From NCBI GenBank assembly GCA_963820555.1, contig CAWGAT010000036.1, positions 4,568 through 68,567 of the forward strand: 64,000 nt of DNA, given 5' to 3'. Positions within the stretch are counted from its first letter, which is position 1. The number at the start of each line of letters is the position of its first letter. The translations under genes were made by a program, and so were the position numbers. This DNA is from Candidatus Bathyarchaeota archaeon. GTDB lineage: Archaea > Thermoproteota > Bathyarchaeia > TCS64. Under the pieces are notes generated by a model. That model saw only the letters and a program-made list of their open reading frames with translations. It did no database searches and was not told the origin of the DNA. Shown piece by piece: positions 55,122-60,879 of the stretch.

Positions 55122-56351
55122 TTGGGCGGGGCGAAGGTGTGGGACGGCTACGGGGCGTATGGTTACCTTGAGGCTGGGTTCGACTATAGGGTCTTCAAGC
55201 TGTCGAGGGGGGCGGGTAGGGTCCCCGAGTATAGAGTTCCCCTGTCGAGGGCGGAGGAGGAGAGGTTCGAGGGACTCATGGAGAGGAACATGATCATCGA
55301 CCTGCATGAGCATCCTGTTCTCTATCCCGAGGATATGACTCAGCTGCCCGAGGTCAACGGGCTGGGGAGGCAGTTCACCGCTTACGAAGACATCGCGAAG
55401 GCGGGCGTGGACTGTGTCTTCGACCACATGATGGACGGTATGGGCTACATAACGAGCTTTAACGGGTGGAAGTGGAACGACGTCGTTCACGACATCGGAG
55501 TCAGGCTCTGTGATCTGGCTCATCAGGGGACGGTGATCCACTGCAGGGGCGTCGGCGACATTGAGGAGGCGCGTAGGAGGGGTAAGGTTGCGCTCGTCCT
55601 CTGCCTAGAGTCGGCGACGCCGATTGAGAACGAGGTGGATCGGGTGGATGTTCTCTACGGCTTGGGGGTCAGGAGTATGGGGGTCTGCTACTCTGAGTCG
55701 AACATGCTCGGTGGTGGCATGGGGGAGAGTAGGCTTGACTCGGGGCTGACGGACTTTGGCTACGATGTTGTGAAGCGCATGAACAAGGTAGGGATGCTAG
55801 TCGATGTGGGGCACACGAACGATAGGACGGCGCTTGAGACTATTGAGGCCTCTGGAGACCCTATTTACAACAGCCACAGTGGGCCGGGGGCGATTGCTCA
55901 GGGGCACACGAACGGGGATGAGTTCCTGCATACGTTGGCGGAGAGCGATGGCCTACTCGGGATCGGCGGCGCGGGGAGGGGGCTGAGGACAAGGAAGCAT
56001 CCGGTCGGGAGCATCGACAGCTATGGGGAGTGCCTAGCTTACTGCATAGACTTGATGGGGGTGGATCACGTCGGCTGCGGCCCTGACACGCTGTACGGTG
56101 ACCACCAGGCGCTCTATAGGGTGTGGTTCCCGAGGCGGATGGGTCACTACAGGAGGCCGGGCGCCGGTGAGGCGGAGGAGTTCCCCGTGTTGAATGGGGA
56201 GGTTGACCCCAGCTATGTCAGGGGGCTTGAGAATCCGTCGGAGTTCACGAACATCGCCCGGTGGATGGTGGCGAATGGGTATAGCGATGGGGAGGTTGGT
56301 AAGGTGATGGGCGGGAACGCTCTCAGGCTTCTGGGGCGGGTGTGGGGGTAG
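55122..56351 (+). CDS. Membrane dipeptidase family M19 (second, divergent copy)
   Basis: Intact 409 aa. IIDLHEHP, DVGHTNDRT and YNSHSG. Confidence 0.75.
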   Translation: MGGAKVWDGYGAYGYLEAGFDYRVFKLSRGAGRVPEYRVPLSRAEEERFEGLMERNMIIDLHEHPVLYPEDMTQLPEVNGLGRQFTAYEDIAKAGVDCVFDHMMDGMGYITSFNGWKWNDVVHDIGVRLCDLAHQGTVIHCRGVGDIEEARRRGKVALVLCLESATPIENEVDRVDVLYGLGVRSMGVCYSESNMLGGGMGESRLDSGLTDFGYDVVKRMNKVGMLVDVGHTNDRTALETIEASGDPIYNSHSGPGAIAQGHTNGDEFLHTLAESDGLLGIGGAGRGLRTRKHPVGSIDSYGECLAYCIDLMGVDHVGCGPDTLYGDHQALYRVWFPRRMGHYRRPGAGEAEEFPVLNGEVDPSYVRGLENPSEFTNIARWMVANGYSDGEVGKVMGGNALRLLGRVWG

Positions 56352-56691
56352 GGTTACCGAGTCTCCTCCTGAGTATTGATGAGCAGACTATGAGCCAGTA
56401 GGTATAGTTGGGGAGGGTGAGGGCGAAGCTGAGCCAGTAGCCCTGCTGGGCGTAGTAGGCGAGGGCGAGCCCGATCGCTAGGACGATGAGTATCGTTCCG
56501 GGTAGGTTGTACCCCCTGAGGACCTTTCTGTCCCTGTAAGCAGTGTAGAGCATGAGGAAGCCGCTTAGGAAGAGGAATAGGTTGCCGGCGTCGAGTAGGA
56601 GGGTGTCCACGATACCTCCTCTTCGTTTAGGTTGATAACGGTTGAGAGTTTGTTTATGCGTGTGTGTGGGTGGGGGGGTGTATAACATCAT
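56323..56691 (-). CDS. Small membrane protein, hypothetical (start uncertain)
   Basis: 122-aa ORF with 3 hydrophobic segments. The N-terminal ~20 aa are probably not translated. Confidence 0.3.
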   Translation of the reverse strand: MMLYTPPPTHTHKQTLNRYQPKRRGGIVDTLLLDAGNLFLFLSGFLMLYTAYRDRKVLRGYNLPGTILIVLAIGLALAYYAQQGYWLSFALTLPNYTYWLIVCSSILRRRLGNPTPTPAPEA

Positions 56692-56760
56692 CCAGCGTCT
56701 CCTTCTTTAACGGTTCCATGGTGTGACTTGGGGATTGCCTGTTTACTTTATTTATTTATG

Positions 56761-58003
56761 GAGAATTTTGATTTACTCTGGTTTTAGTGGTTTTTACCCC
56801 CCCTCGGCATTCAGACGCGTTTTTTCCACCCCCCACGGGTAAGCTTAAAGATCTCTAACACGAACACCCATCATGCACTCCTTCAAGACCTACCTCCTGA
56901 AGCAATCCTACGAGAACGTGGCCAAACTAGGAGACAAACTCGCCGAAGCGGACAAGATAGACTGGGAGGCCTTCAGACCCATCACCCAGGGACTCTTCGA
57001 CAACGGCGGAACCAACGGCGGCCGCCCCAACCTGGACCCGGTGATGATGGTGAAACTGCTGGTGCTTCAGGCCTGGTACGGGCTGAGCGACCCCGAGCTC
57101 GAGAGGCAGGTCGCGGACAGGATCAGCTTCCAGCGGTTCCTAGGGTACCCGGAGTCGGCACCGGACTTCTCGACGGTGTGGAGGTTCAGGGAGAGGCTCG
57201 CCGTCTCCGGTAAGGACAGGCTGATCTGGGACGAGCTGCAGCGCCAGCTGGACGCCGAGGGCCTGAAGGTGGAGAAGGGCGTGATCCAGGACGCCTCGTT
57301 CATCACAGCCGACCCCGGCCACGCCGGGGCCGACGAGCCCCGTGGCGACGCGGCCCAGACCCGGAGGTCCAGGGACGGGGCCTGGGCGGTGAAGGGGAGG
57401 AAGGCCTACTTCGGCTACAAGCTCCACGCGAAGGTGGATACGAACCACGGCCTCGTCCGCGACCTCGAGGTGACGCCCGCCAACGTGCATGACAACGAGG
57501 TCGACCTGAGTAAGCCGGGTGAGGTGGTTTACCGTGACAAGGGGTACCAGGGCGTGGGGCCTCGTGGCTGGGACGCGACGATGAGGCGTGGGGCCCGTGG
57601 CCACCCGCTGAGCATCTGGGATAAGCTGCGGAACGCGCGGATCGGCCGAAGGCGGGCGCCGGGTGAGAGGCCGTTCGCGGTGATCAAGCGCGTGTTCGGC
57701 TCGGGGCACGTGCTCGTGACCACTGTTTCCAGGGTCCGGGTTAAGATGGTCTTCGCGTGTCTTGGCTTCGACGTGGTTCAGCTGGGGAGGCTGGGCGTGT
57801 AGCCGGCGGCGTGGGCCATCGATCTGGTGGCCTTTTAGGTGGTTTGAGGGTGGTGTATGGGGGGCTGGGGAGGTGTGTAGGGCTTTGGGGAGTGGTCGGT
57901 GAGGTGGCTTGAGGCTTGTTCCAGCGTTGTTTCATGCCGATCACAGCCCCTTTCTTGAACAAAAATAACCAGTATCAAAGAAAACGAAGATTATCAAAAT
58001 CCT
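56761..58003 (+). mobile_element. Complete IS5-family insertion sequence (1243 bp) with imperfect terminal inverted repeats and a 4-bp target duplication
   Basis: IRL GAGAATTTTGAT (56761-) versus the reverse complement of IRR GAGGATTTTGAT (-58003), 11 of 12 identical. Flanking direct repeat TATG at 56757-56760 and 58004-58007. Confidence 0.8.
56873..57802 (+). CDS. IS5-family DDE transposase
   Basis: Intact 309 aa. InsH-like N-terminus (LDPVMMVKLLVLQAWYGLSDPELERQV...ISFQRFLG). DDE region (DASFITAD, YRDKGY). Confidence 0.9.
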   Translation: MHSFKTYLLKQSYENVAKLGDKLAEADKIDWEAFRPITQGLFDNGGTNGGRPNLDPVMMVKLLVLQAWYGLSDPELERQVADRISFQRFLGYPESAPDFSTVWRFRERLAVSGKDRLIWDELQRQLDAEGLKVEKGVIQDASFITADPGHAGADEPRGDAAQTRRSRDGAWAVKGRKAYFGYKLHAKVDTNHGLVRDLEVTPANVHDNEVDLSKPGEVVYRDKGYQGVGPRGWDATMRRGARGHPLSIWDKLRNARIGRRRAPGERPFAVIKRVFGSGHVLVTTVSRVRVKMVFACLGFDVVQLGRLGV

Positions 58004-58049
58004 CTATGTTAATTTCTTGGTCGTCTGGGCTTTTTTCCTGTATTTAAGT

Positions 58050-58084
58050 GGGATGATAGTGTGATGATAGTTTATACTATCATC
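58050..58084. repeat. GGATGATAGT / GATGATAGT direct repeats plus inverted ACTATCATCC
   Basis: 58050-58059 and 58075-58084 form a perfect 10-bp inverted repeat. A second direct copy lies at 58062-58070. Located between the IS right end and the dam 3' end. Confidence 0.6.
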
Positions 58085-58150
58085 CATCTTCCTACGAGTC
58101 TTCAACCGAGATGATTGGGGCCTTTTTTCTTACGTGTGGCGATACTTATG

Positions 58151-58156
58151 AAAAAA
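58151..58156 (-). terminator. Oligo-T tract immediately after the dam stop codon
   Basis: The minus strand reads TAA-A-TTTTTT. Archaeal termination typically uses oligo-T. Confidence 0.3.
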
Positions 58157-58157
58157 T

Positions 58158-58964
58158 TTATTTTCCTATGTTAGTGACGATGATCTCCTTTATGGGGCCC
58201 CTGCCCGTGGTCTTCGTGTTTATGCTACGGTTGGCGTGGACAGTCGCGGTCTTGAAGCCCCTGTAGAGTTTTTTGACTGGCTCGCTGTTGCTGAGGACGA
58301 ATAAGACGCCGCGGGCGTCGAGTTTCCTGATCGTCTCGCTGAGTCGGACCTGTTCGGTCCAAGGGAAGCCGTCTGGGCTGTAGGTGTTGAAGTTGGAGGT
58401 GCGGCTCAGCGGCTCGTAGGGTGGGTCGAGGTAGATGATGTCCCCCTCGTGGGCGGCGTCGAGGAGGTAGGAGAAGTCCTCGTTCCTGATCTCGACGCAG
58501 CTCAGCGCCTCGCTGGCGGAGAGGATGTCCTCCTCGGGGACTATTGTGGGGTTCTTGTATGTGCCAAACGGGACGTTGAAGACACCCCTGCTGTTCACCC
58601 TGTATAGGCCGTTGTACCCAGTCTTGTTCAGGTAGAGGAGGAGGGCGGCGTCCTCCACTGGTTGTAGCCCGCCCTCGTTGAATCTGTCTCTAAGTTGGTA
58701 ATACGTGTCCCTGTCGTATGGGTACTTTAAGGCCTCTTCGATGAGTTGATCCGGTTCGTCCCTCACGACCCTGTAGAAGTTTATCAGGCGTGGGTTGACA
58801 TCGTTCACGGTCCCCCTCCTAGGCTTGACGGTGAAGAAGAGGGCGCCGCCGCCAAGGAATGGTTCGTGATATGCACGTTCCTCATAGTCGGGTGGGAAGG
58901 TGGCGAGGATAGCCTGTATCAGGCTCCTCTTCCCCCCGGCCCACTTCAGTATCGCCGTCATCAC
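58158..58964 (-). CDS. dam: DNA adenine methyltransferase (Dam/D12 class, N6-adenine)
   Basis: Intact 268 aa. LKWAGGKRSL, EPFLGGGALFF (FxGxG) and IIYLDPPY. Confidence 0.9.
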   Translation of the reverse strand: MMTAILKWAGGKRSLIQAILATFPPDYEERAYHEPFLGGGALFFTVKPRRGTVNDVNPRLINFYRVVRDEPDQLIEEALKYPYDRDTYYQLRDRFNEGGLQPVEDAALLLYLNKTGYNGLYRVNSRGVFNVPFGTYKNPTIVPEEDILSASEALSCVEIRNEDFSYLLDAAHEGDIIYLDPPYEPLSRTSNFNTYSPDGFPWTEQVRLSETIRKLDARGVLFVLSNSEPVKKLYRGFKTATVHANRSINTKTTGRGPIKEIIVTNIGK

Positions 58965-59311
58965 CCAGTTACCAGCTTCAAACCGTACTTCGTCAGTCGC
59001 TGAAAGTGGCGGTCCCCGGTTAATAGGGCTGAATCATTGGTCATCGCCGTAGCCGCGATTATAAGGTCAGCGTCTGGGATTGTCGCCCCAGCTTCCTTCA
59101 ATTGATTATAGATCGAGCTCACGAGGAGCACGACCTCGTTATCGATCCCGAATACCTCATAGTTTTGTTCAAGCAGCTCTTTAACGGCTCGTCTCTTACC
59201 TTCATCGACGCCGCGGAGAATCTCCAAGAGGGTGATCGTTGAAATGGCGCCCGCGTGGGTGGCGCCTCGCTGGATGTCATCGATCACTACATCGCTGTCA
59301 ATGAGGGTCAT
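58961..59311 (-). CDS. vapC: PIN-domain ribonuclease toxin VapC
   Basis: 116 aa. N-terminal LIDSDVVID. Acidic residues are spaced as in PIN domains, with a C-terminal LLTGDRHF. Confidence 0.85.
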   Translation of the reverse strand: MTLIDSDVVIDDIQRGATHAGAISTITLLEILRGVDEGKRRAVKELLEQNYEVFGIDNEVVLLVSSIYNQLKEAGATIPDADLIIAATAMTNDSALLTGDRHFQRLTKYGLKLVTG

Positions 59312-59535
59312 CGTAGCTCGAAGTGCTCCCTGAACTCCCTGCTAGCCTTCCTCATCTTCTCAATGTCCTCGTCCGTGAGTAGTTCCCTCAGCTTCTGGGA
59401 TGCGGTTATTCGGCGGGCCTCGTCTGCCTCGTTGTAGAGGTTCATGAGGTATTCCCCCCACTCCTTGTCGCCCTTCGCCTTCTCCAGGGTGGCCTTGACC
59501 TCCTTGGGGACCGAGATGGTCTGGTACTTGCTCAT
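59308..59535 (-). CDS. vapB: VapB-type antitoxin (archaeal PF02697-like)
   Basis: 75 aa, MSKYQTISVPKEVKATLEKAKGDKEWGEYLMNL. ATGA overlap with vapC. Confidence 0.65.
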   Translation of the reverse strand: MSKYQTISVPKEVKATLEKAKGDKEWGEYLMNLYNEADEARRITASQKLRELLTDEDIEKMRKASREFREHFELR

Positions 59536-59550
59536 GGCTCTGGGAATATT

Positions 59551-59573
59551 ATAGTTGTGTAACTATATAGTTA
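59551..59573 (-). promoter_or_regulatory. Operator-like repeats in the vapB promoter
   Basis: Perfect 14-bp palindrome TAACTATATAGTTA (59560-59573) plus an extra ATAGTT (59551-59556), 16-38 nt upstream of the vapB ATG. The A/T-rich core could double as the TATA box. Confidence 0.45.
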
Positions 59574-59632
59574 TATCGTTATTTTTGTAGTCGACGCGAT
59601 AGCCATAATTACATCCCCTTAATTTTGATCAC

Positions 59633-59896
59633 TTGATGAGACCACGTGTCCTAGTCGCGAGCATAGTCGTTGTTGCCATAGCGCTTCTAACCATGCTATG
59701 GGGTTCGACTTACTCCGTACCCGACCTAGTTAGGGTTGATTACGGGCTGCCGCTGAGGTGGGGCGCCAACACCCTAGACACGCTGGCGGGGCCGGTTGAC
59801 CGGTGGGCCGTGGACTTGATGTCGCTCGCCGTCGACCTCGTCTTCTGGTTCGCGACGCTGATCGTGGTTCAGTTTCTCGTCTCCAGGCGGGGCTAG
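59633..59896 (+). CDS. Small membrane protein, hypothetical
   Basis: 87-aa ORF (TTG start) with two hydrophobic segments. Confidence 0.3.
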   Translation: MMRPRVLVASIVVVAIALLTMLWGSTYSVPDLVRVDYGLPLRWGANTLDTLAGPVDRWAVDLMSLAVDLVFWFATLIVVQFLVSRRG

Positions 59897-59982
59897 GAGC
59901 TTTTCTCCCCTCTACCCCCTTATTCGGTAGTAACTCCAAGAAACGCGTGCCTATTCAAGGTTAGAGAAAAGGCGAGGCGGGG

Positions 59983-60879
59983 CTAGAAGATGTCCTTGCC
60001 ATCCATCGCAAGGAGCCTCGACCAGTTCTCCGTCGTGGCCTCCTGTATCGACGCGATCTCCTCATCTTTCAGGTGCCTGAACCTGCCCTGCATCTTGAGC
60101 GCCTCGGAGACGGGCTTCAGCTCCCTCGGCTTGTAGGTCAGCTTCATGTGGTGCCCGTCCAGTATCTCGTACAGGGGCCAGAGGCCCGACTCGACGGACA
60201 ACCTCGCGATCTTGATGGTGTCCTTTGGGTCTGTGCCCCAGCCCGTCGGGCAGGGGCTGAAGATGTGCATGTATCGGAAGCCCTTCAGCTCCTTGGCGTA
60301 AACGATCTTGGCGGTCAGGTCCTCGGGGTAGGCAACGGAGGCCGTAGCGACGTATGGCACATGGTGTAGGGCGAGTATCATGGGGACGTTCTTCTTCTCC
60401 GATGTCTTGCCCCTGCTCATCTTCGCGATGGGCGTCGTTGTGGTCTGCGCGTGCTCGGGCGTGGCGCTGCTGCGCTGCCCGCCCGTGTTCATGTACGCCT
60501 CGTTGTCGTACGTGAACCAGAAGACGTTCTCGTTCCTCTCCGCAGCCCCGGAGAGGCCCTGGAAACCTATGTCCACCGTCCCGCCGTCTCCGATGAGGCC
60601 GGCGACCACGATGTCCTCCCTGCCGATGATCTTGTAGCCCCTGGAGAGACCCGTCATGAAGGCCGCCGCGCCCTCGAATGCTGGGCCGAAGAAGCTGGGT
60701 ACGCGTATGTTCATGAAGCCCGGGGCGCATGAGGCCACCTCGACGCGTGCGGAGTTCCTGCCGAGCGCCTTGAACACGAGCCTGCCCACGATGGACCCGC
60801 CGCAGCCCTGGCACGCTGGGTTGCCCGGCCACATGACCTCCTCCTCACGGAGATCCCGTATGCTCATTTTCTTGCTCAT
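59983..60879 (-). CDS. porB: Pyruvate (2-oxoacid):ferredoxin oxidoreductase beta subunit
   Basis: Intact 298 aa. CQGCG and GDGG TPP-binding motif. Confidence 0.9.
   Translation of the reverse strand: MSKKMSIRDLREEEVMWPGNPACQGCGGSIVGRLVFKALGRNSARVEVASCAPGFMNIRVPSFFGPAFEGAAAFMTGLSRGYKIIGREDIVVAGLIGDGGTVDIGFQGLSGAAERNENVFWFTYDNEAYMNTGGQRSSATPEHAQTTTTPIAKMSRGKTSEKKNVPMILALHHVPYVATASVAYPEDLTAKIVYAKELKGFRYMHIFSPCPTGWGTDPKDTIKIARLSVESGLWPLYEILDGHHMKLTYKPRELKPVSEALKMQGRFRHLKDEEIASIQEATTENWSRLLAMDGKDIF

What the first reader, a model, noticed from the sequence alone, without database searches (positions are those of the whole stretch)
58158..59535. vapB-vapC-dam: an orphan Dam methyltransferase translationally coupled to a PIN toxin-antitoxin pair
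Three intact genes on the minus strand overlap at their junctions. vapB/vapC share ATGA (59308-59311), and the vapC TGA overlaps the dam GTG/ATG start (58959-58964). No restriction endonuclease gene is adjacent. The flanks are an IS on one side and a small membrane ORF followed by porB on the other. The trio sits in an islet that by eye looks less GC-rich than its surroundings, and none of its genes carries a frame disruption. A methyltransferase embedded as the third cistron of a type II TA operon is not a standard arrangement. It could be an addiction-stabilised epigenetic module, or a defence or anti-defence cassette.
Basis: partly seen in the sequence, partly recalled or inferred. Interest (0 to 1): 0.6.

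Follow-up and report, generated by a model that had tools for sequence, protein, structure and literature searches.

The report
VapBC toxin-antitoxin fused onto resident dam
An ordinary VapBC toxin-antitoxin pair, with its own promoter, sits directly in front of a DNA-methylase gene that is an old core gene of this group of uncultured Bathyarchaeia archaea, so the three genes form one operon in about nine related lineages; this looks like evolutionary hitch-hiking, not a new three-part system.

Summary
vapB (59308-59535), vapC (58961-59311) and dam (58158-58964) are intact minus-strand genes that overlap at both junctions. There is no restriction gene nearby, and the only terminator-like T-run lies just after dam.

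- dam is a resident, syntenic, orphan GATC-type methylase. It was found in 17/17 genomes of the genus and 22/24 of the family, nearly always without vapBC.
- The same trio, at the same site next to the por operon, occurs in about 9 diverged lineages (17 contigs). All three genes are under purifying selection there, so the adjacency is not unique.
- It has one origin. About 150 loci with more distant members of this vapBC family never carry dam, and 50 other Thermoproteota dam loci never carry vapBC.
- The palindrome TAACTATATAGTTA upstream of vapB is the hallmark operator/promoter of this vapBC family.
- Three vapBC-less sister species keep that promoter plus a 47-nt vapC 3' remnant in front of dam. 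vapBC was therefore deleted there and its promoter kept.
- The region is not a low-GC islet.

Most likely a selfish TA cassette captured the upstream region of dam. A dedicated epigenetic or defence module is unlikely.

The parts
59560..59573 (-). Perfect 14-bp palindrome TAACTATATAGTTA, 25-38 nt upstream of the vapB ATG. I read it as the vapB operator overlapping the TATA box, that is, the promoter of the whole operon.
   Evidence: Coordinates and uniqueness: it occurs exactly once in the 2.38-Mb genome. A match with 3 or fewer mismatches is found in 56/72 distinct 60-nt upstream regions of unlinked vapB homologues, against 1.9% of random 60-mers from the same loci. It is conserved with 0-1 mismatch in the eight trio loci whose dam hit was long enough to be scored.
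59548..59558 (-). Second half-site-like repeat (ACAACTATAAT on the sense strand) between the palindrome and the vapB start.
   Evidence: Read from the sequence. Repeated TAGTTA/TAACTA half-sites are typical of the upstream regions of this vapB family.
59308..59535 (-). vapB, a 75-aa antitoxin of family PF02697. The DNA-binding N-terminus is probably ribbon-helix-helix and the C-terminus is helical.
   Evidence: Pfam hit above the gathering score. AF2 model has pLDDT 88.5, with an extended N-terminus and three helices. The top Foldseek hits are RHH antitoxins and M. tuberculosis VapB, but with E 6-9, so this is inconclusive. dN/dS is 0.14-0.32 across lineages.
58961..59311 (-). vapC, a 116-aa PIN-domain toxin with the acidic quartet D5, E30, D82, D100.
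   Evidence: PIN E 2.4e-9. The four acidic residues are invariant in 17 homologues. Weak sequence hits to solved VapC structures 3zvk and 6nkl. dN/dS is 0.08-0.15.
58158..58964 (-). dam, a D12-class N6-adenine DNA methyltransferase of the Dam family. The conserved start is the ATG at 58961-58959. It is an orphan and probably GATC-specific.
   Evidence: TIGR00571 covers the protein end to end. Best solved relatives are DpnM 2dpm (E 1e-60) and E. coli Dam (E 3e-41). The FxGxG and DPPY motifs are present, and the positions aligned to EcoDam K9, Y119, N120, L122, R124, P134, Y138 are identical. It is syntenic in relatives. dN/dS is 0.09-0.2.
58959..58964 (-). vapC-stop/dam-start junction (GTGATG). 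The TGA and the ATG share one base, a translational-coupling configuration.
   Evidence: The other trio lineages have the classical ATGA overlap at this junction.
58151..58156 (-). T6 run on the sense strand immediately after the dam stop codon, a likely archaeal terminator and the end of the transcription unit.
   Evidence: It is the only run of five or more T on the sense strand between 58101 and 59640.

Best explanation
This is a canonical VapBC type II toxin-antitoxin cassette: an RHH-type VapB of family PF02697 plus a PIN RNase VapC. It brought its own palindromic operator/promoter and inserted once, in an ancestor within this Bathyarchaeia genus, directly upstream of a resident, family-conserved orphan Dam (GATC) methyltransferase gene. 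It took the place of dam's own promoter. As a result, dam in this lineage is the third cistron of the TA operon. What the sequence and comparisons show: the gene order, the overlaps, the TA-family operator upstream of vapB, a single terminator-like T-run after dam, purifying selection on all three genes, and vertical or recombinational inheritance at one chromosomal site. What I infer: a VapB dimer, alone or with VapC, binds TAACTATATAGTTA over the TATA box and autorepresses a nearly leaderless vapB-vapC-dam mRNA; dam is translated by termination-reinitiation at the TGATG/ATGA junction; Dam methylates GATC genome-wide as a housekeeping orphan enzyme; VapC is an RNase that is released when VapB is degraded. 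The link between the TA pair and dam is historical, a selfish cassette hitch-hiking on and capturing the 5' region of a core gene. It is not a dedicated three-component system. Sister species later deleted vapBC and kept its promoter to drive dam.
For: (1) dam is a core gene. It was found in 17/17 genomes of the genus and 22/24 of the family. The conserved order is porA-porB-small membrane ORF <-> dam-mem122-(glutaredoxin/dipeptidase) in 11 relatives, none of which has vapBC. (2) The trio has one origin. All 17 contigs whose VapC is at least 62% identical (about 9 lineages, 67-88% nt identity to each other) carry vapB-vapC-dam at the same por-linked site with overlapping junctions. None of the 17 family loci or the roughly 150 further loci with VapC of 58% identity or less, from Bathyarchaeia, Hadarchaeia, Desulfurococcales, Culexmicrobium and Chloroflexia among others, has dam. 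None of 50 dam loci inspected in other Thermoproteota families has vapBC or a coupled upstream ORF. (3) The promoter belongs to the TA family: the motif is enriched 56/72 against 1.9% and occurs once in the genome. (4) Loss leaves scars. In G007, G011 and G012 the same promoter (0-1 mismatch) is followed by a roughly 46-nt stretch, about 80% identical to the vapC 3' end, that still reads RHF...GLKLV with stops. The VapC family conserves exactly this C-terminus. (5) Six other species carry a different, vapBC-free dam promoter box, GGTAAAAGATCTAAATC, including the basal lineages, which I read as the ancestral state. (6) No internal dam promoter is visible: third-codon-position conservation at the vapC 3' end is 0.39-0.53, against a gene mean of 0.49. 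The only T-run follows dam. (7) The orphan status fits: GATC is not strongly avoided (observed/expected 0.84, 10,506 sites), and no DpnII-family or MutH-family nuclease was found.
Against: Co-transcription and translational coupling are therefore inferred from anatomy only. The trio has been kept, with overlaps, over dS of about 0.5 to more than 1, with dN/dS of 0.1-0.3 on vapB and vapC. That could also reflect selection for a functional link. The polarity of events (insertion, then losses) rests on attributing the motif to the TA family and on a partly unresolved Dam tree in which lineages with and without vapBC are interleaved. Allelic recombination is evident: between the window and L045, vapB has dS 0.25 while vapC has dS 1.4. 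The number of gains and losses is therefore uncertain. The genome is only 69% complete, so a cognate nuclease elsewhere cannot be excluded.
Confidence: 0.75

Rival explanations
1. The trio is a selected functional module. Placing dam under VapB/VapBC autoregulation and translational coupling would tie GATC-methylation levels to the TA state, giving a stress-responsive epigenetic switch. Alternatively, the TA pair would stabilise the dam locus by addiction.
For: The trio is retained with intact overlaps in about 9 diverged lineages, and all three genes are under purifying selection. dam has no visible promoter of its own. The ancestral dam promoter box contains a conserved GATC, so regulation of dam may matter.
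Against: dam is kept in every relative without vapBC. vapBC was deleted in at least one clade with dam retained. In one lineage dam is interrupted after about 35 codons while vapBC stays intact. The vapBC family is otherwise never linked to dam. Persistence and purifying selection are expected for any addictive TA pair.
Confidence: 0.12
2. It is a defence or anti-defence cassette. One version is a restriction-modification-like system in which the PIN nuclease replaces the restriction enzyme and Dam marks self. Another is an abortive-infection TA whose methylase counters phage-encoded or DpnI-like nucleases.
For: TA pairs and methylases both occur in defence islands. An IS and a variable region lie downstream of dam. 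Earlier notes of this scan describe methylase-PIN modules in other genomes.
Against: There is no mobility and no island context: the site is a single one beside the por operon. dam long predates vapBC. A separate, complete VapB is present. Dam aligns end to end with TIGR00571 and has no antitoxin-like tail, unlike the modules noted earlier in the scan. VapB and VapC match no PADLOC model, and Dam matches generic type II and orphan MTase models. VapC-type PIN toxins are RNases (general knowledge).
Confidence: 0.03
3. The adjacency is purely physical. dam is transcribed independently from a promoter embedded in the vapC coding sequence, and the overlaps have no consequence for expression.
For: An AT-rich CTTATAATC (the L-I-I codons) lies about 100 nt upstream of the dam ATG. 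Archaeal promoters are short and can hide in coding sequence. There are no transcript data.
Against: There is no excess synonymous-site conservation in the last 100 nt of vapC. The ATGA/TGATG junction is conserved in all lineages. After deletion of vapBC, the sister species kept the vapB promoter in front of dam and did not use any other.
Confidence: 0.1

Closest known systems
VapBC type II toxin-antitoxin systems (PIN-domain VapC with an upstream VapB; archaeal PF02697-type antitoxins)
   Same: A small antitoxin gene overlaps a PIN toxin gene by ATGA. The acidic quartet is conserved. A palindromic operator lies over the promoter. The family is scattered sporadically across many archaeal, and some bacterial, lineages.
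   Different: Here the operon has a third, unrelated cistron (dam) joined by a stop/start overlap. This copy has been inherited at one chromosomal site across about 9 lineages rather than moving about.
Orphan Dam methyltransferases (E. coli Dam, PDB 2g1p; DpnM/M.DpnIIA, PDB 2dpm)
   Same: Full-length Dam-family match. FxGxG and DPPY motifs are present. The residues aligned to the EcoDam GATC contacts are identical. There is no cognate nuclease. The gene is conserved at genus and family level, like other orphan methylases.
   Different: It is archaeal (Bathyarchaeia). In this lineage it is expressed from a TA promoter. Its specificity and biological role are untested.
Three-gene TA operons such as the tripartite TAC (HigBA plus a SecB-like chaperone) and paaR2-paaA2-parE2 (from general knowledge)
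   Same: A type II TA operon with an extra co-transcribed cistron.
   Different: In those systems the third protein acts on the TA pair, as a chaperone or regulator, and travels with it. Here the third gene is a resident housekeeping gene that exists without the TA pair in most relatives.
Methyltransferase-PIN modules noted earlier in this scan (e1-4018757, e1-3613500, e1-4875199, e1-2834572)
   Same: A DNA methyltransferase lies next to a PIN toxin.
   Different: According to those AI notes, which I did not check, those modules are large RM-like methylases whose C-terminal tail replaces the antitoxin, and they are mobile. Here a separate complete VapB exists, Dam has no tail, the gene order is TA then methylase, and the unit is not mobile.
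Type II restriction-modification systems as addiction modules (from general knowledge)
   Same: A methylase associated with a toxic nuclease, with post-segregational-killing logic.
   Different: There is no DNA endonuclease. VapC is an RNase-type PIN with its own protein antitoxin. The methylase is not needed to neutralise it, since vapBC occurs without dam at about 150 loci.

Membership tests
VapBC type II toxin-antitoxin | Toxin is a PIN domain with the conserved acidic residues | tested here: met
   PF01850 E 2.4e-9. D5, E30, D82 and D100 are invariant in 17 homologues. The NCBIfam VapC equivalog models score below their cut-offs (43.5 against 80), so membership holds at domain level only.
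VapBC type II toxin-antitoxin | Small antitoxin gene immediately upstream, overlapping or abutting the toxin gene | tested here: met
   ATGA overlap at 59308-59311. The pair is kept together in every homologous locus tabulated and in every trio locus listed.
VapBC type II toxin-antitoxin | Antitoxin has an N-terminal DNA-binding fold (RHH, AbrB or similar) and a C-terminal toxin-binding region | tested here: inconclusive
   PF02697 scores above its cut-off. The AF2 model (pLDDT 88.5) has an extended N-terminus and three helices, which is compatible with RHH. Foldseek's best hits are RHH antitoxins and Mtb VapB, but only at E 6-9. There is no sequence relative in the PDB.
VapBC type II toxin-antitoxin | Palindromic operator in its own promoter (autoregulation) | tested here: met
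   TAACTATATAGTTA lies 25-38 nt upstream of vapB. The same motif (3 or fewer mismatches) occurs upstream of 56/72 unlinked family members, against 1.9% background. Binding itself is not tested.
VapBC type II toxin-antitoxin | Toxin arrests growth and the antitoxin neutralises it | not testable with these tools
   Needs expression in a laboratory host.
Dam family (D12-class, GATC N6-adenine methyltransferase), orphan type | Full-length match to the family model above its curated cut-off | tested here: met
   TIGR00571 268.7 bits against 114.85, covering 1-267/267. PF02086 203.6 bits.
Dam family (D12-class, GATC N6-adenine methyltransferase), orphan type | Catalytic motifs I (FxGxG) and IV (DPPY) | tested here: met
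   EPFLGGGALFF and YLDPPY are read in the translation and align to DpnM and EcoDam.
Dam family (D12-class, GATC N6-adenine methyltransferase), orphan type | GATC-recognition residues | tested here: met
   The positions aligned to EcoDam K9, Y119, N120, L122, R124, P134 and Y138 are identical. The role of these residues comes from my knowledge of the EcoDam-DNA structures.
Dam family (D12-class, GATC N6-adenine methyltransferase), orphan type | No cognate restriction endonuclease | tested here: met
   None is adjacent in the window or in 11 syntenic relatives. PF04556 (DpnII) and PF02976 (MutH/Sau3AI) were not found in the genome, which is 69% complete. GATC observed/expected is 0.84.
Dam family (D12-class, GATC N6-adenine methyltransferase), orphan type | m6A at GATC in vivo | not testable with these tools
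   Needs a long-read methylome or DpnI/MboI digestion.
Mobile three-gene module (TA plus methylase as one unit) | The unit recurs at different genomic sites or in unrelated taxa | tested here: not met
   All 17 trio contigs are at the por-linked site in one genus-level clade. There are 0 in about 150 wider vapBC loci and 0 in 50 other dam loci.

The most novel reading that the evidence does not exclude
A toxin-antitoxin promoter has been exapted as the promoter of a genome-wide epigenetic enzyme. In lineages with vapBC, Dam output would be set by VapB/VapBC autoregulation and so by whatever degrades VapB, such as stress. In sister species the TA genes were deleted but the orphaned vapB operator/promoter was kept as the sole dam promoter. 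It replaced an ancestral dam promoter that carried a conserved GATC, which may have been self-regulating. This would be a documented case of a selfish TA cassette permanently rewiring the regulation of a core gene.
Probability: 0.3. Interest if true: 0.5.

Novelty: new variant of a known kind. Interest (0 to 1): 0.35.

Why it matters
The parts are ordinary: a VapBC pair and an orphan Dam. The value lies in the evolutionary record, where three allelic states of one locus are preserved in one genus. They are the ancestral dam promoter, the TA cassette inserted so that dam becomes its third cistron, and the TA genes deleted with their promoter retained. This shows how a selfish TA cassette can capture and lastingly rewire the expression of a housekeeping gene. 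It also offers a natural experiment for whether TA autoregulation influences DNA methylation in an uncultured archaeal group. Finally, it adds a family-wide conserved orphan Dam to the little that is known about methylation in Bathyarchaeia.

Tried and rejected
- Low-GC islet or horizontally acquired trio: rejected. GC is at the 48th percentile and dam is syntenic in relatives.
- Unique, accidental adjacency: this was my own reading. I rejected it when closer VapC homologues from metagenomes all showed the trio.
- IS-mediated delivery of the trio: rejected. The IS5 element lies downstream of dam, is private to this genome and is single-copy in the assembly. No terminal inverted repeats were found, and its ends could not be placed because the spacer is too diverged.
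- Cognate restriction enzyme: DpnII-family and MutH/Sau3AI-family nucleases were not found in the genome.
- Known defence systems: PADLOC gives nothing for VapB or VapC.
- Structured RNAs in 56000-60500: no Rfam match at E <= 0.1.
- Internal dam promoter: no synonymous-site conservation signal.
- Link between the ATAGT repeat cluster at 58044-58090 and the upstream operator: rejected. That downstream spacer is hypervariable and the cluster is absent from the other trio loci compared (L048, L050, L051, L053, L054) and from the vapBC-less relatives.
- VapB fold: the model fits RHH, but the Foldseek matches are not significant.
- Literature: I found no paper on a vapBC-dam operon or on GATC methylomes of Bathyarchaeia.
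Full report
**1. What is there.**

On the minus strand of 58158-59535 lie three intact ORFs.
- vapB is 75 aa (59308-59535). It matches Pfam PF02697 (VAPB_antitox) above the gathering score.
- vapC is 116 aa (58961-59311). It is a PIN domain (E 2.4e-9).
- dam is 268 aa (58158-58964). It covers the TIGR00571 Dam model end to end (268.7 bits, cut-off 114.85).

vapB and vapC share ATGA at 59308-59311. The vapC TGA shares one base with the ATG at 58961-58959. Relatives show that this ATG is the conserved dam start. The only run of five or more T on the sense strand of the whole unit is a T6 directly after the dam stop, at 58151-58156.

Two details need correcting.
- 'porB' is the beta subunit of pyruvate:ferredoxin oxidoreductase.
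- The trio is not a low-GC islet. Its GC is 56.3%, against a genome mean of 55.4% +/- 6.1, which is the 48th percentile.

**2. The parts.**

VapC keeps the PIN acidic quartet D5, E30, D82, D100, invariant in 17 homologues.

The VapB model (pLDDT 88.5) has an extended N-terminus followed by three helices. That is what a ribbon-helix-helix antitoxin monomer looks like. The Foldseek matches to RHH antitoxins and to M. tuberculosis VapB are not significant, however.

Dam is closest to DpnM (2dpm, E 1e-60) and E. coli Dam (E 3e-41). It has the FxGxG and DPPY motifs. It is identical at the positions aligned to the EcoDam residues that, to my knowledge, contact GATC: K9, Y119, N120, L122, R124, P134 and Y138.

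Several results fit an orphan enzyme.
- No DpnII-family or MutH/Sau3AI-family nuclease was found in the 69%-complete genome.
- GATC is only mildly under-represented, with observed/expected 0.84 and 10,506 sites.

**3. dam is a resident core gene.**

The window lies in a MAG of 2.38 Mb. Earlier notes of this scan call it Bathyarchaeia. A close VapC homologue comes from a record named Candidatus Bathyarchaeota.

A dam orthologue was found in 17/17 genomes of the same genus and 22/24 of the family. It was found in 0/16 sampled genomes of other families of the order and class.

In 11 relatives the order is porA-porB-small membrane ORF, then divergently dam-mem122-(glutaredoxin or dipeptidase). None of these has vapBC or the IS5 element. 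At that point the adjacency looked unique to this genome.

**4. The trio recurs, but only as one inherited locus.**

VapC homologues in the family's representative genomes are about 50% identical, always paired with a vapB, and never near dam.

The large protein collection holds 15 VapC clusters at 62-78% identity. Every one I looked up shows the same context, as do the close hits of a metagenome scan. In total 17 contigs carry porB-small ORF <-> vapB-vapC-dam with overlapping junctions.
- By vapBC nucleotide identity (67-88%) these contigs, with the window, make about 9 lineages.
- Each is only about 80% identical in DNA to any representative genome.

Across the lineages compared, dN/dS is 0.14-0.32 for vapB, 0.08-0.15 for vapC and 0.09-0.2 for dam, at dS of about 0.25 to more than 2. 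All three genes are therefore functional and maintained.

The arrangement does not occur outside this locus.
- None of about 150 loci with VapC of 58% identity or less has dam. These come from Bathyarchaeia, Hadarchaeia, Desulfurococcales, Culexmicrobium, Chloroflexia and others.
- Dam-family genes occur in 83 of 401 sampled Thermoproteota genomes. In 50 of those loci from other families, no vapBC or coupled upstream ORF is present.

The trio is thus a single-origin arrangement at a single site. It is not a mobile module.

**5. The promoter came with the TA cassette, and deletions left scars.**

The perfect palindrome TAACTATATAGTTA (59560-59573) lies 25-38 nt upstream of the vapB ATG, where a TATA box for a nearly leaderless mRNA would sit. 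It occurs exactly once in the genome.

A match with 3 or fewer mismatches is present in 56 of 72 distinct 60-nt upstream regions of unlinked vapB homologues from many lineages. In random 60-mers of the same loci the figure is 1.9%. The motif is therefore the operator/promoter signature of this vapBC family.

The locus exists in three states in the genus.
- **State B** is the trio.
- **State C** is found in G007, G011 and G012, which have no vapBC. In front of dam they carry the same promoter (0-1 mismatch), then a few filler bases, then a roughly 46-nt stretch about 80% identical to the last codons of vapC. That stretch still reads RHF...GLKLV, broken by stops and indels. The VapC family conserves exactly this C-terminus, so it is a vapC remnant. 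A deletion of about 540 bp removed vapB and most of vapC and left the TA promoter driving dam.
- G015 and G002 have the motif (2 mismatches) directly before dam with no remnant. G017 has a weaker version.
- **State A** is found in six other species, including the basal ones in the Dam tree. They have a different conserved box, GGTAAAAGATCTAAATC, 30-47 nt upstream of dam and no trace of vapBC. I take this as the ancestral state.

In the Dam tree the three states are interleaved. The operon is also mosaic: against the L045 group, vapB of the window has dS 0.25 while vapC has dS 1.4. Several losses, allelic replacement by homologous recombination, or both must have occurred. I cannot count the events.

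**6. Mechanism.**

Shown by sequence and comparison:
- one promoter-like element of TA type upstream of vapB;
- no space between the cistrons;
- no excess synonymous-site conservation in the vapC 3' end that would betray an embedded dam promoter;
- one terminator-like T-run after dam.

Inferred:
- VapB, alone or with VapC, binds the palindrome and autorepresses a vapB-vapC-dam transcript.
- dam is translated by reinitiation at the stop/start overlap.
- Dam methylates GATC as a housekeeping orphan enzyme.
- VapC is a PIN RNase held in check by VapB.

**7. Against a dedicated module.**

- dam persists everywhere without vapBC.
- vapBC persists at about 150 loci without dam.
- vapBC was deleted with dam kept.
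- In one lineage (L270/L271, two independent assemblies) dam is interrupted after about 35 codons by AT-rich foreign sequence while vapBC is intact.
- In another lineage (L046/L047) the dam behind vapBC has been swapped for an allele closest to a dam of restriction-modification type.
- VapB and VapC match no PADLOC model.
- Dam has no antitoxin-like tail, unlike the methylase-PIN modules that this scan noted on other DNA.

Long retention under purifying selection is what an addictive TA pair produces by itself. Still, dam expression in state B must now pass through a TA-regulated promoter. The rewiring of a core gene's regulation is real even if it arose by accident.

**8. Verdict.**

The object is a new variant of known kinds: a VapBC cassette fused upstream of a resident orphan dam, with a readable history of insertion, promoter take-over and deletion. 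Interest is moderate. I found no paper describing a vapBC-dam operon.

Noticed in passing
L006, L007, L009, L010, L012, L034 (30-47 nt upstream of the dam ATG): In the six species with no trace of vapBC, dam is preceded by a strongly conserved box, GGTAAAAGATCTAAATC, which contains a GATC inside AGATCT. This may be a dam promoter that senses its own methylation. The vapBC-type promoter that replaces it in the window has no GATC.
   Followed up: partly
L046:4310-4759 and L047:4290-4739: In one trio lineage the dam behind vapBC keeps the same first codons, but the rest is only about 65% identical to the usual allele. It is 75% identical to the dam of G001 (L035). That gene lies 0.8 kb from a MutH/Sau3AI-family nuclease gene (PF02976, E 7e-13), which suggests a GATC restriction-modification system. 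This points to allele replacement by recombination inside dam.
   Followed up: partly
L270:2762-3010 and L271: In the lineage with the most diverged dam-linked VapC (62%), dam breaks off after about 35 codons and runs into AT-rich unrelated sequence, while vapB and vapC stay intact. The same is seen in two independent assemblies. The contigs are too short to show what was inserted.
   Followed up: partly
window 56873-57802 (+), up to about 58040: An IS5-family transposase ORF (GC 65.6% against 55% for the genome) lies between dam and the conserved mem122 gene. It is absent from all relatives and single-copy in this assembly. No terminal inverted repeats were found, and its ends could not be placed because the spacer is hypervariable among relatives.
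   Followed up: partly
It is not conserved in the other trio loci compared or in the vapBC-less relatives, so it is not a second operator of the cassette. Its origin is unknown and could be the IS end.
   Followed up: partly
search across Thermoproteota: A Dam-family gene is present in 56/56 sampled genomes of one other family of the phylum (f21; genomes of about 1.6 Mb, many complete), and patchily in others. Conserved orphan-like Dam genes therefore seem to have become fixed independently in several archaeal families.
   Followed up: no
window 59308-59535 compared with L045/L054: vapB of the window is much closer to the L045 group (dS 0.25, 92% aa identity) than vapC (dS 1.4) or dam (dS 1.1) are. 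This indicates a recombination breakpoint near the vapB/vapC junction.
   Followed up: partly
G000 contigs C47, C23, C48, C19: The genome holds four further PF02697 vapB genes. The exact palindrome TAACTATATAGTTA occurs only at the dam-linked copy.
   Followed up: no
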